In this document: piece by piece, positions 9,043 to 14,461 of the stretch
Numbering within the stretch: the first letter of the stretch is position 1
Layout of the letters: each line of letters opens with the position of its first letter
Source of the DNA: a virus
DNA length: 64,000 bases
Virus record (IMG/VR): IMGVR_UViG_3300030012_001865
Location: 30,286-94,285 of that record
Reading direction: 5' to 3' (one strand)
Made by a program: the position numbers and the translations under genes
The notes under the pieces: generated by a model
Databases searched by the model: none
Told to the model about the DNA's origin: nothing
What the model saw: the letters and a program-made list of their open reading frames with translations, nothing else

Positions 9043-9073
9043 CAAAAATATAAATTTTAGTATTTTGTGCAAA
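9043..9073 (-). promoter_or_regulatory. Bacteroidota sigma70-type promoter upstream of the paralog pair and portal
   Basis: - strand TTTG-N19-TATTTTTG; near copy of the promoter at 5647-5676. Confidence 0.75.
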
Positions 9074-12776: not shown

Positions 12777-12784
12777 CAAATATA
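12777..12784 (-). promoter_or_regulatory. Putative -7 box (TATATTTG) just before the HTH gene
   Basis: Exact TAnnTTTG ending 4 nt before ATG 12772; -33 box not convincing. Confidence 0.45.
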
Positions 12785-12790
12785 ATAAAA

Positions 12791-13567
12791 TTAATTATAA
12801 TTTAACATGTCGATAATTTCTTTTCGATAATCTGCACACTTTATAAGTTTATAAGTGTCATTTTTTTCGTTGAACCAAACTATAAAACAATCTTTGATTC
12901 TAAGGTTTGTTTCGTACTCAATTATATATCTGTAAAGTGAAAGTTGTAAAGAGTATGTAGAAAATTCACACTCGTCTAGGTGAGATACAGGCCCAAGCAT
13001 CTTTTTTTGGTACCTGCTTTTGTAAGTCATTCTTTTGTTCGTTTTCCAGTCAAATATGACAAGCCCATCAAGAGTATTTGAATAGTAGAGCTGGTCAACC
13101 ATACCGCATATCCCAAGATCGCGAGAACCAACGCACAACTCAGAGCGAACAGGTATAAGATTTTCTTTCGATTCTTCATAAAATTCTAAAAAGTAGGATT
13201 CAATTTTGTCGTACGCTTCTTTATCTAAATCAAAGTCATACATTACATTAGTGAGCACCTTATTATTTATGTAGTTTTCCGCAAATGCGTGAAACTTACT
13301 ACCTTTATTACATGCGCGTAAACTAATCGAATCCCACCTATCTAGAATGTCCTGCAGTTTTACATTTTCTTTTTCTGCAGAACGTGCTGCCCAAAAGTCT
13401 CTCTCAAAAGTTTCTTTGAATTGTCCAATGAATGTGGTTACAGATATAGCTTCCTGCCCCCCGACAGTATACGTGTGTCCCTTCTCCGTAAATACCACAT
13501 CATTGAACTTGTTTAATTCTGTGTATAAAAACATAATATCAATCTTCTTCTCCTTCTCCTTCTTCAT
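12791..13567 (-). CDS. PD-(D/E)XK (Cas4-like) exonuclease
   Basis: SVTTFI, GSKFH, SEL.V, GMVDQL, IFDWKTNK, YSLQLSLY; true start may lie slightly downstream. Confidence 0.8.
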   Translation of the reverse strand: MKKEKEKKIDIMFLYTELNKFNDVVFTEKGHTYTVGGQEAISVTTFIGQFKETFERDFWAARSAEKENVKLQDILDRWDSISLRACNKGSKFHAFAENYINNKVLTNVMYDFDLDKEAYDKIESYFLEFYEESKENLIPVRSELCVGSRDLGICGMVDQLYYSNTLDGLVIFDWKTNKRMTYKSRYQKKMLGPVSHLDECEFSTYSLQLSLYRYIIEYETNLRIKDCFIVWFNEKNDTYKLIKCADYRKEIIDMLNYN

Positions 13568-13646
13568 AAACGGTTTCTTCCTCTATAGTAGAATCCGTTA
13601 TCCAAGATTCCCATATTATCTTTGCTTGTTCTTTTGGATCTGTCAT
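13539..13646 (-). CDS. Small acidic hypothetical protein (35 aa)
   Basis: MTDPKEQAKIIWESWITDS...; ATG 13646 preferred because the longer called ORF runs through the structured RNA. Confidence 0.4.
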   Translation of the reverse strand: MTDPKEQAKIIWESWITDSTIEEETVYEEGEGEED

Positions 13647-13662
13647 ATCACACTTAATTATT

Positions 13663-13812
13663 AAAACAAAAGTGGCCAAAAGAAAACCAAACTGAAATGC
13701 CACTAACTTTTCAATCGGGAGAGTCATTGCTGGTTCAACTCTCAAACATCAAACGAAGATACTTGTCTGTTCCAACAATCGTCTCTGATTGAAGTGCTAG
13801 TTCGGTAACTCA
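13663..13812 (-). ncRNA. Candidate structured small RNA (6S-like or antisense sRNA)
   Basis: Bounded by the TACGTTTG -7 box (13818-13825) and an AGTGGC-N22-GCCACT hairpin followed by TTTGTTTT; internal TTCAATC/GATTGAA and GAGAGT/ACTCTC stems. Confidence 0.5.
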
Positions 13813-13817
13813 GTTTG

Positions 13818-13825
13818 CAAACGTA
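13818..13825 (-). promoter_or_regulatory. Putative -7 box (TACGTTTG) at the head of the leftward block
   Basis: Matches TAnnTTTG at the divergence point; A/T tracts upstream. Confidence 0.55.
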
Positions 13826-13930
13826 AAAAAAAATTTTTTATAAAAAAAATATTTTCTGAGAAAATGAAAGAGTGGACCACCTATATCACGGCACCCCTTC
13901 TATCTTTTGCGGGCTAACACCCCCACAGTT
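13826..13930. other. Strand-switch region, probable genome terminus or packaging junction
   Basis: A/T tracts then GGACCACC, GCACCCC, ACACCCCC C-runs between the divergent late (-) and early (+) blocks. Confidence 0.4.
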
Positions 13931-13968
13931 GCAAATTATAAATTTATCAATCCTAAAAACAAGTTTTT

Positions 13969-14316
13969 ATGCTTACTAAATTCACAATTTACAAAGTGTC
14001 GCTTTCCGAAAAGAATAACACCACTATCGTCCTAAAGGCCGACAGTGCCGTATCCTTCGGAAATATGCGCCTACAGTCAGTCGTTATGAATAACTCCTTC
14101 TGTTGGCACACTTTCCGCGGAAAGCTTGACACGGAGTTTACTCAACTCCAACAACAGCAAGCTGTCATTGAAGTTGACAACCCCCAAATTTCCGTCGCTG
14201 ACGCTGACGGAAAAGGTGGTGGTAAACTCCTGCTCACACCTAACTCACACCTAAAGGTGTTCGTTAATGGTGTCGAGCAAACTGCTACGGTTGCTCCGCA
14301 ACCTGCACAGTCGTAA
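13969..14316 (+). CDS. First early gene, hypothetical (possible OB-fold/ssDNA-binding)
   Basis: 115 aa, A-rich leader, own terminator, visibly C-richer codons than neighbours. Confidence 0.65.
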   Translation: MLTKFTIYKVSLSEKNNTTIVLKADSAVSFGNMRLQSVVMNNSFCWHTFRGKLDTEFTQLQQQQAVIEVDNPQISVADADGKGGGKLLLTPNSHLKVFVNGVEQTATVAPQPAQS

Positions 14317-14317
14317 T

Positions 14318-14346
14318 AAGAGCCCTAACGGGCTCTTTATTTTTTT
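14318..14346 (+). terminator. Intrinsic terminator
   Basis: AAGAGCCC-TAAC-GGGCTCTT followed by TATTTTTTT. Confidence 0.88.
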
Positions 14347-14461
14347 GGTTGATCTGTTTACACTTGGTTACGTGATCTTTCGTGCACCAGTTAACATTCC
14401 CACTTATTCCCTTATAATTTACTTACACACTAATCCACTACATTATAACATATAGCTAATT

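What the first reader, a model, noticed from the sequence alone, without database searches (positions are those of the whole stretch)
13663..13825. Promoter- and terminator-bounded structured RNA at the start of the late block: candidate phage 6S-like RNA or anti-TIR sRNA
Seen (- strand): a TACGTTTG -7 box, then ~150 nt with nested stems (TTCAATC/GATTGAA at 13787-13793/13710-13716; GAGAGT/ACTCTC at 13738-13743/13719-13724), then a hairpin AGTGGC-N22-GCCACT plus TTTGTTTT. The loop region (CAUUUCAGUUUGGUUUUCUUUUG) is the reverse complement of CAAAAGAAAACCAAACTGAAATG, which reads like an A-rich Bacteroidota translation start ending in ATG. Inference: the size and long-looped terminator recall Flavobacterial 6S RNA, from memory only. 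It could sequester host sigma70-RNAP or block a specific mRNA start.
Basis: partly seen in the sequence, partly recalled or inferred. Interest (0 to 1): 0.72.

Follow-up and report, generated by a model that had tools for sequence, protein, structure and literature searches.

The report
Conserved structured leader RNA in marine crAss-like phages
A roughly 150-base stretch between a host-type promoter and the first genes of this marine crAss-like phage's leftward arm is a strongly conserved, folded RNA leader that matches no Rfam family and most likely works as a switchable stop signal; it is not a 6S-like RNA.

Summary

**Conservation.** The block from the TACGTTTG -7 box (13825) to the U-tract (13663) occurs once per contig in about 34 IMG/VR contigs and about 82 marine metagenome contigs, giving 59 distinct core variants. 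Core identity is 81-88%, while third codon positions of the neighbouring exonuclease gene are only 52-61% identical.

**Structure.**
- The hairpin GAGAGUU/GACUCUC covaries in four sequence backgrounds.
- A second helix, CCRAYUGAAA/UUUCARUUUGG, pairs the "terminator loop" with the segment that can also pair with TTCAATC. That gives a two-state or pseudoknot arrangement.
- One variant class adds a covarying 5'-terminal helix.

**Position.** The element always sits about 25 nt ahead of a small acidic ORF. The next -7 box on this strand is at 12784.

**Reading.** I read it as a cis-acting leader acting as an attenuator or riboswitch-like switch (confidence about 0.5).

**What is not supported.**
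- Rfam, including the 6S and 6S-Flavo models, gives nothing.
- The loop complement ends in ATG only in the window's closest relatives.
- The 68-aa ORF is not conserved, but a short hydrophobic uORF cannot be excluded.
- No transcript ends could be shown.

Another first-stage note of this scan on the same stretch (e1-6071485) also called it a two-state RNA.

The parts
13826..13860 (-). A+T-rich tract upstream of the promoter (UP-like)
   Evidence: Sequence. It is only partly conserved between variant classes, and it draws low-complexity reads in oligo-dT libraries.
13818..13825 (-). -7 box TACGTTTG (Bacteroidota sigma-A type, TAnnTTTG)
   Evidence: Present in essentially all variants for which upstream sequence is held, with TA and TTTG fixed and the two middle bases varying (CG, CA, GA, GC, TG). 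That this motif is a promoter box rests on established knowledge of Bacteroidota promoters.
13796..13813 (-). 5' arm CUGAGUUACCGAACUAGC; the predicted transcript start is about 13811-13813
   Evidence: Conserved in classes V1 and V2. In class V3 it is replaced by a 5'-terminal helix strand (GCGAGAAUA, GCAAG.., CUACGAAAUAC) that starts about 6 nt after the -7 box and covaries with its partner. The start site is inferred, not mapped.
13787..13793 (-). seg1 UUCAAUC, which pairs with seg2
   Evidence: ACUUCARUCA is kept in nearly all variant classes; the divergent L176 lineage has ACUUCAUCC instead. The core is 5 bp, UUCAR/YUGAA. One pair runs AU:8, GU:11, GC:2, and the outermost C-G pair exists only in window-type sequences.
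13767..13778 (-). Small hairpin YUG-UUGGAN-CAG with the invariant UGUUGG
   Evidence: Three base pairs, 100% paired, with change on one side only (CG:38, UG:20). UGUUGG could also pair with CCANCA in the loop of hairpin B: 98% paired, no covariation.
13719..13743 (-). Hairpin B: GAGAGUU (13743-13737) with GACUCUC (13725-13719), 11-nt loop; the AUG at 13727-13725 straddles loop and stem
   Evidence: Seven base pairs, 100% paired in 58 distinct sequences. Two pairs show compensatory changes (GC:49/AU:9 and AU:51/GC:7). The variants occur in four sequence backgrounds and no non-helix column shares the pattern.
13709..13718 (-). seg2 CCGAUUGAAA, the shared strand that pairs with seg1 or with seg3
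   Evidence: In L065 and L222 the U-to-C change in seg2 is matched by G in both seg1 and seg3.
13687..13697 (-). seg3 UUUCAGUUUGG, inside the 22-nt loop; pairs with seg2 to form helix S1
   Evidence: Ten base pairs with one bulge, 99.7% paired. Two pairs changed on both sides (CG:57/UA:2 and UA:46/UG:11/CG:2) and three changed on one side only. Prefix folding forms S1 in five of the seven distinct leaders folded, but not in the window-type (L095/L064) or L065, where seg2 pairs with seg1 instead.
13671..13704 (-). Hairpin T: AGUGGC (13704-13699) with GCCACU (13676-13671), 22-nt loop
   Evidence: The stem is invariant in 57 of 59 distinct sequences, so covariation says nothing for or against it. 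It scores -7.2 kcal/mol alone. The simple terminator scan does not call it because the loop exceeds 8 nt.
13663..13670 (-). U-tract (UUUUGUUUU when T13671 is included)
   Evidence: The Us are invariant and only the middle base varies (C, G, A).
13539..13646 (-). First gene of the unit: small acidic protein (35 aa here, 48-56 aa in relatives)
   Evidence: An ORF of this family starts about 25 nt after hairpin T in all loci examined except L039, which has one inserted ORF. No Pfam or PHROG match.
12791..13534 (-). Exonuclease (phrog_298); the likely true start is M12 at 13534
   Evidence: PHROG match at E = 2.6e-34. Relatives align from residue 12-14 onward. The next TAnnTTTG on this strand is at 12784.

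Best explanation
The stretch is the structured 5' leader (about 150 nt, roughly 13812 to 13663, - strand) of the first host-RNA-polymerase transcription unit of the phage's leftward arm. That unit holds a small acidic protein and an exonuclease here, plus PhoH and other small genes in relatives.

It most likely acts in cis as a conditional stop, in the manner of an attenuator or riboswitch expression platform. One strand (seg2, CCGAUUGAAA) can pair with an upstream strand (seg1), closing a conserved core that holds hairpin B and the UGUUGG hairpin. Or it can pair with a downstream strand (seg3) that lies inside the large loop of the AGUGGC/GCCACU hairpin, directly ahead of an invariant U-tract. 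Which partner seg2 takes would decide whether the hairpin plus U-tract stops the polymerase or lets it run into the genes.

Shown here: the conservation, the promoter box, hairpin B, the seg2:seg3 helix, the alternative seg1:seg2 pairing, the fixed 5'-UTR position, and the absence of any other promoter before 12784.

Inferred: that the hairpin plus U-tract terminates transcription, that the two pairings are functional alternatives rather than a static pseudoknot, the direction of the switch, and the signal (a metabolite, a phage or host protein, or a ribosome on the short uORF).
For: (1) Nucleotide-level selection: core identity to the window is 81-88% in relatives whose exonuclease third codon positions are 52-61% identical. 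The conserved block runs exactly from the promoter box to the U-tract.
(2) RNA on this strand: G-U pairs are used in the helices. Hairpin B covaries in four backgrounds. Class V3 has a covarying helix that starts at the predicted transcript start.
(3) Switch geometry: seg2 pairs with seg3 (10 bp, 99.7% paired, compensatory changes) and with seg1 (5-7 bp; AU/GU/GC series). The rare C in seg2 occurs only where both partners have G. Prefix folding forms seg2:seg3 first in five of the seven distinct leaders folded (not in the window-type or L065), and the full-length MFE then moves to hairpin T alone in four of those five. The states lie a few kcal/mol apart.
(4) Cis position: one copy per contig, always about 25 nt ahead of the first ORF on the same strand, and no other -7 box before 12784.
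(5) One marine RNA-library contig runs from 13807 through the U-tract to 13589, which is compatible with read-through.
(6) In the nearest cultured relative, phi14:2, the leftward genes are read by the host polymerase as middle and late classes (bioRxiv 10.1101/2020.03.07.982082).
Against: - No transcript start, end or level could be measured. Only assembled contigs were on hand, and they may derive from DNA.
- Hairpin T has a 22-nt loop and only 6 bp, unlike the canonical terminator of the same phage at 14318-14337, so it may not terminate at all.
- T never varies, so covariation is silent on it.
- seg2:seg3 and T are topologically compatible as an H-type pseudoknot, so the structure may be static rather than switching.
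- One of the two doubly changed S1 pairs comes from a single divergent lineage.
- Alignment A5 was fitted to a model that contained S1, which biases pair counts toward it.
- No ligand, protein partner or relative outside this phage clade was found.
Confidence: 0.5

Rival explanations
1. Small hydrophobic peptide gene or uORF. The AUG at 13727 opens MTLPIEKLVAFQFGFLLATFLL..., either a membrane peptide (type I toxin-like or holin-like) or a leader peptide whose translation melts seg2, hairpin T and seg3. The upstream 95 nt would then be its structured 5' UTR.
For: The ORF is in frame in 17 of 24 unique variants. Its variable sites fall 6:4:1 on codon positions 3:1:2, all third-position changes are synonymous, and the replacements are conservative (L/F, L/V/I, I/T). 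In L001-type sequences its stop overlaps the next start as ATGA.
Against: Seven of 24 unique variants break the frame while keeping the nucleotides: a 1-nt deletion gives MTLPIEI-stop, and another lineage shifts frame inside the loop. The C-terminus and length vary from 28 to 62 aa, and in the window it is fused to the next gene. Codons that could vary synonymously (UUU, GGU, GCC, ACU, GUG) never do, so RNA-level constraint dominates. The 6:4:1 split is not significant (about p = 0.08 for the deficit at position 2, my own calculation). No PHROG match.
Confidence: 0.15
2. Stand-alone trans-acting small RNA. Transcription ends at the U-tract and the roughly 150-nt RNA acts on host or phage mRNAs through its U-rich loop. 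It could equally be a by-product of the attenuator.
For: It is bounded by a promoter and a hairpin plus U-tract. The 22-nt loop is nearly invariant. U-rich loops could in principle pair with the A-rich start regions typical of Bacteroidota (general knowledge). A sister note of this scan proposes a similar loop-to-start-site logic elsewhere in this phage (e1-6071491, unchecked by me).
Against: The loop's 5' half is paired with seg2, supported by compensatory changes. The ATG complement is not conserved. No second site within 3 mismatches lies in the 64-kb window, and there is no exact match on either strand in 185,579 prokaryote genomes. It is always in the 5'-UTR position, and the downstream genes have no promoter of their own.
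Confidence: 0.12
3. Processive antitermination RNA, as with HK022 put. The folded leader binds the transcribing host polymerase in cis and makes it resistant to downstream terminators along the leftward arm.
For: It lies immediately downstream of the first leftward promoter. It has high sequence conservation in loops and helices alike, as expected for an RNA that contacts a protein surface. Read-through is needed.
Against: Further -7 boxes at 12784 and 9050 re-initiate the arm, so long-range antitermination is not obviously needed. There is no sequence or structural likeness to put that I could test. The element itself ends in a hairpin plus U-tract.
Confidence: 0.08
4. Phage 6S-like RNA that sequesters host sigma-A RNA polymerase.
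For: Only the size (about 150 nt) and the position behind a strong promoter.
Against: No Rfam match to 6S or 6S-Flavo at gathering score or at E<=10. The consensus folds show separate short hairpins, not a rod with a central bubble. It sits in a 5' UTR.
Confidence: 0.02

Closest known systems
Transcriptional riboswitches and attenuators with terminator/antiterminator expression platforms
   Same: A 5'-UTR position, a conserved folded core closed by a helix (seg1:seg2) whose 3' strand can instead pair downstream (seg2:seg3), then a hairpin plus U-tract just ahead of the first gene.
   Different: No match to any of the 4227 Rfam families. No ligand is known. The competing helix traps the terminator's 5' strand in its loop instead of sharing a strand with it. 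The terminator-like hairpin has a 22-nt loop. The element is confined to one phage clade.
Phage lambda PR'-tR' leader (the lambda '6S' transcript) with Q antitermination (from established knowledge)
   Same: A promoter, a short leader and a stop signal placed ahead of a phage operon that is read by the host polymerase and must be read through.
   Different: No Q-like protein or qut-type DNA site was identified. Here the conserved information is RNA structure with covariation. The downstream unit is short and is followed by further promoters.
HK022 put RNAs and other cis-acting antitermination leaders such as EAR (from established knowledge)
   Same: A promoter-proximal folded RNA in a phage operon, conserved in both sequence and structure, acting in cis.
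   Different: No likeness could be tested. The element carries its own hairpin plus U-tract and shows alternative pairings.
Bacterial 6S RNA (Rfam 6S and 6S-Flavo)
   Same: Size range only.
   Different: No covariance-model match and no rod-with-bubble architecture. It is a leader of an mRNA, not a separate gene.
Type I toxin mRNAs (hok, fst, ldr; from established knowledge)
   Same: A small hydrophobic ORF embedded in a highly structured, sequence-conserved RNA whose start codon is partly sequestered in a hairpin.
   Different: The ORF is frame-broken in about 30% of variants and runs through the hairpin plus U-tract. I did not look for an antisense RNA.

Membership tests
6S RNA (Rfam 6S / 6S-Flavo) | Match to the family covariance model | tested here: not met
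   cmscan of the whole window at gathering score gave 0 hits. Positions 13500-14000 at E<=10 gave five chance-level hits, none of them 6S.
6S RNA (Rfam 6S / 6S-Flavo) | Long, largely double-stranded rod with a large central bubble | tested here: not met
   RNAalifold consensus on 29 and on 19 sequences gives separate short hairpins.
6S RNA (Rfam 6S / 6S-Flavo) | Binds the sigma-70-type holoenzyme | not testable with these tools
   Needs an RNA polymerase pull-down.
Intrinsic (factor-independent) terminator | G+C-rich hairpin with a short loop directly followed by a U-tract | tested here: inconclusive
   The U-tract is invariant and the stem has 6 bp with 4 G-C pairs, but the loop is 22 nt. The consensus scan does not call it. 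It scores -7.2 kcal/mol alone.
Intrinsic (factor-independent) terminator | RNA 3' ends at the U-tract | tested here: inconclusive
   Only assembled contigs were available. One crosses the U-tract. Contigs cannot show transcript ends.
Transcription attenuator / riboswitch expression platform | Mutually exclusive helices that share a strand, upstream of the regulated gene | tested here: met
   seg2 pairs with seg1 or with seg3, and both pairings are kept across variants. The position is fixed in the 5' UTR. Whether the helices really alternate in vivo is inferred.
Transcription attenuator / riboswitch expression platform | A signal (ligand, protein, tRNA or ribosome) shifts the balance | not testable with these tools
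   Needs in-line probing or transcription assays.
Trans-acting antisense sRNA (anti-TIR) | Conserved, accessible seed complementary to target start regions | tested here: not met
   Half of the loop is paired in S1. The ATG complement is not conserved. No second site lies in the window, and there is no exact match in prokaryote genomes. Imperfect host targets were not searched.
Small protein-coding gene | Open frame kept across relatives with protein-level selection | tested here: not met
   Seven of 24 unique variants are frame-broken, the C-terminus varies, and synonymous sites are frozen. A short uORF of at least 7 codons is kept in all variants.
HK022 put-type antitermination RNA | Leader RNA makes the polymerase resistant to downstream terminators | not tested
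   No model or assay was available.

The most novel reading that the evidence does not exclude
The conserved core closed by seg1:seg2 (hairpin B, the UGUUGG hairpin and the invariant joining strands) is the aptamer of an orphan riboswitch. By sensing a host metabolite or signalling nucleotide, it would let a crAss-like phage decide when the host polymerase may enter its first leftward operon. This would be a phage-borne riboswitch class with no cellular counterpart.
Probability: 0.15. Interest if true: 0.85.

Novelty: new variant of a known kind. Interest (0 to 1): 0.5.

Why it matters
Gene timing in crAss-like phages is understood only in outline: a virion polymerase reads the early genes and the host polymerase reads the rest. 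No RNA-level control is described in the one crAss transcription study I read, and two broad literature searches turned up none.

This element is a ready-made, compact candidate: about 150 nt, 59 natural variants, one firmly covarying hairpin, and a testable three-strand switch at the entry to the host-polymerase-dependent arm of a widespread marine clade. If it responds to a small molecule or to a phage protein, it would show how these phages couple late development to host state, and it would add a new family to the catalogue of structured RNAs. If it is only a stabilising or translated leader, it is of local interest.

Tried and rejected
- **blastn against 50,697 phage records:** no match.
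- **Model R1 on distant relatives:** nothing significant in loci whose exonuclease is 41-48% identical, in 45 loci with distant copies of the small acidic gene, or in phi14:2. In phi14:2, g110 has only a short leader.
- **RNA evidence:** five marine RNA runs hold small shares of the stretch. What could be laid were only Logan contigs. The deep pile at 13825-13855 is A/T low-complexity sequence from oligo-dT libraries. Nothing shows a start, an end or a strand.
- **Long-range pairing of the 5' end with the loop, as in the window's MFE:** the partners do not co-vary (CUGAG/UUCAG against CUGGG/UUCAA).
- **AUUGUUGG with CCAGCAAU:** the pairing is possible but shows no covariation, and the Y position would give C-A in most sequences.
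- **Extension of hairpin T by AAAAG/CUUUU:** the variable bases do not correlate, and the seg2 U-to-C variants break it.
- **All-against-all column screen:** swamped by relatedness and not used.
- **tRNA or tmRNA:** none in the window.
- **Literature:** one crAss transcription study read, which describes no leader RNA of this kind; a second, broad search was uninformative.

Full report
**Setting.** The window is part of a 94-kb virus record with the layout of a crAss-like phage. A + strand replication block starts at 13969 and contains a family A DNA polymerase. A - strand block holds the exonuclease, a GroES-like gene, the large terminase and giant virion proteins. The nearest cultured relative by terminase is Cellulophaga phage phi14:2, at 40% amino-acid identity. 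In phi14:2 the rightward replicative genes are early and are read by the virion polymerase. The leftward genes are middle or late and are read by the host polymerase from sigma-70-like promoters (bioRxiv 10.1101/2020.03.07.982082). The finding lies in the divergent gap, at the head of the leftward arm.

On the - strand the -7 box TACGTTTG is at 13825-13818. The 161-nt RNA folds at -42.2 kcal/mol, z = -2.45.

**Conservation.**
- Relatives of the exonuclease were fetched from IMG/VR (63 loci). blastn shows that the block from about 13835 to 13651 is kept at 75-98% identity in about 33 of them. In some it lies more than 1 kb from the exonuclease, because PhoH and small genes are inserted between.
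- Two independent pattern scans of IMG/VR return the same set, one copy per contig. A metagenome scan adds 86 stretches, four of them false, many from TARA and other marine assemblies.
- A covariance model aligns 89 copies, 59 of them distinct.
- Core identity to the window is 81-88% in relatives whose exonuclease third codon positions are 52-61% identical. Selection therefore acts on the nucleotides themselves.
- Nearly every copy with upstream sequence has a TAnnTTTG box at the same distance. The two middle bases vary.
- No copy exists in 185,579 prokaryote genomes, in the public phage records searched by blastn, in more distant phages or in phi14:2.

**Structure.**
- Hairpin B (GAGAGUU 13743-13737 with GACUCUC 13725-13719) is paired in every sequence. 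Two of its pairs show compensatory changes (GC:49/AU:9 and AU:51/GC:7).
- The variants GAAGGU/ACCUUC and GAAAGU/ACUUUC occur in four different sequence backgrounds, and no column outside the helix shares their pattern. This helix is solid.
- A second helix, S1, joins seg2 (CCGAUUGAAA, 13718-13709) to seg3 (UUUCAGUUUGG, 13697-13687), which lies inside the 22-nt "terminator loop". It has 10 bp and is 99.7% paired. C-G changes to U-A in the most divergent lineage, and U-A passes through U-G to C-G in two backgrounds.
Its outer C-G pair exists only in window-type sequences. The rare C in seg2 is found only where both seg1 and seg3 carry G.
- Hairpin T (AGUGGC/GCCACU) never varies, so covariation is silent on it.
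- One variant class replaces the window's 5' arm with a terminal helix. That helix starts about 6 nt after the -7 box and covaries (GCGAGAAUA/UAUUCUCGC, GCAAG/CUUGC, CUACGAAAUAC/GUAUUUCGUAG). This fits a transcript that begins there.
- G-U pairs in several helices point to RNA of this strand rather than a DNA element.

**Position.**
- In all loci examined, a small acidic ORF starts about 25 nt after hairpin T. The one exception, L039, has an extra inserted ORF. The ORF is 35 aa here, at 13646-13539, and 48-56 aa elsewhere.
- On the - strand the next -7 boxes are at 12784 and 9050. The small ORF and the exonuclease therefore depend on the 13825 promoter and on passage through the hairpin and U-tract.
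- This makes a stand-alone sRNA gene unlikely, and it rules out a strong constitutive terminator.

**The ORF.** The 68-aa frame is a window-specific fusion. In the closest relatives the short frame MTLPIEKLVAFQFGFLLATF..IKCEI ends at an ATGA overlap with the next gene. Among 24 unique variants of this segment, 17 keep the frame, with variable sites at codon positions 3:1:2 in the ratio 6:4:1. Seven break the frame while keeping the nucleotides. Codons that could vary synonymously never do. I conclude that RNA-level constraint dominates, but that a short uORF, which is at least 7 codons long in all variants, may be part of the mechanism.

**Mechanism.**
- In prefix folds, seg2:seg3 forms as soon as seg3 is made in five of the seven distinct leaders folded. 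In the window-type and L065, seg2 pairs with seg1 instead.
- Of those five leaders, four have a full-length optimum with hairpin T and no S1, in some cases extended by the U-tract. In the fifth (L114) S1 is retained at full length.
- The competing states lie within a few kcal/mol of each other.
- This is the logic of an attenuator or riboswitch platform, with seg1:seg2 closing a conserved core.
- However, S1 and T could also coexist as an H-type pseudoknot with loops of 4, 1 and 10 nt. I therefore cannot say which state stops transcription, or whether the fold switches at all.
- I put 0.5 on a cis-acting conditional stop. The rivals are a functional uORF or peptide (0.15), a trans-acting sRNA (0.12), a put-like antitermination RNA (0.08) and a 6S-like RNA (0.02).

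**Known families.** Rfam gives no match at gathering score or at E<=10, and ARAGORN finds nothing. The consensus folds lack the 6S rod and bubble. The ATG that made the loop complement look like a start region is not conserved.

**RNA data.** Five marine RNA runs hold parts of the stretch, but only as contigs. One runs from 13807 to 13589 across the U-tract. Others span the promoter and may be DNA. No transcript end is shown.

**Verdict.** This is a real, clade-specific structured leader RNA that matches no Rfam family. The 6S and anti-TIR readings are not supported. Its function is plausible but untested.

Noticed in passing
window 13534-13567: The listed 258-aa exonuclease ORF starts with MKKEKEKKIDI. 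Most relatives (below about 85% identity) align only from residue 12-14, so the true start is probably the ATG at 13534. The upstream codons overlap the end of the small acidic ORF.
   Followed up: partly
window 13644-13652, compared with L001 2915-2925: In the window and in L010, a 2-nt difference fuses the leader's short ORF in frame to the small acidic gene, giving a 62/68-aa ORF. In L001-type relatives the two are separate and overlap as ATGA.
   Followed up: yes
L012 1990-2157, L096-L162: The small acidic protein (..DSWIxDLE..PEACSIDNPDCENCGS) has relatives in many other marine viral contigs in quite different gene contexts and without the leader. It has no Pfam or PHROG match. The C-terminal CxxxxxCxxC looks like a metal site.
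   Followed up: partly
L124 1394-1487, L126 1352-1445, L135 1393-1486: In some distant phages the small acidic gene is directly preceded by an unusually long (94-nt) tRNA that ARAGORN calls tRNA-Asp (GTC), with a long extra arm.
   Followed up: partly
window 12777-12784 and 9043-9050 (- strand): There are further TAnnTTTG boxes. TATATTTG lies just after the exonuclease stop and a few bases ahead of the next ATG, giving a near-leaderless unit. TATTTTTG lies at 9050, upstream of the next block. The leftward arm is therefore cut into several host-polymerase units.
   Followed up: partly
window 14318-14347 (+ strand): A canonical intrinsic terminator (8-bp G+C-rich stem, 4-nt loop, T-run) follows the first + strand ORF (13969-14316). 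It shows what an ordinary terminator looks like in this phage.
   Followed up: no
window 13825-13855: The A/T homopolymer tract upstream of the promoter attracts hundreds of short low-complexity contigs from oligo-dT RNA libraries. This is an artefact that could be misread as high expression.
   Followed up: yes
L176 749-873 and its upstream 5' part: A fourth leader class from a TARA contig has a different 5' part. It lacks ACTTCAR and instead has ACTTCATCCCGAT, which can pair with its altered seg2 (TTCGGAAA). This hints that the seg1:seg2 contact is maintained by co-change.
   Followed up: partly
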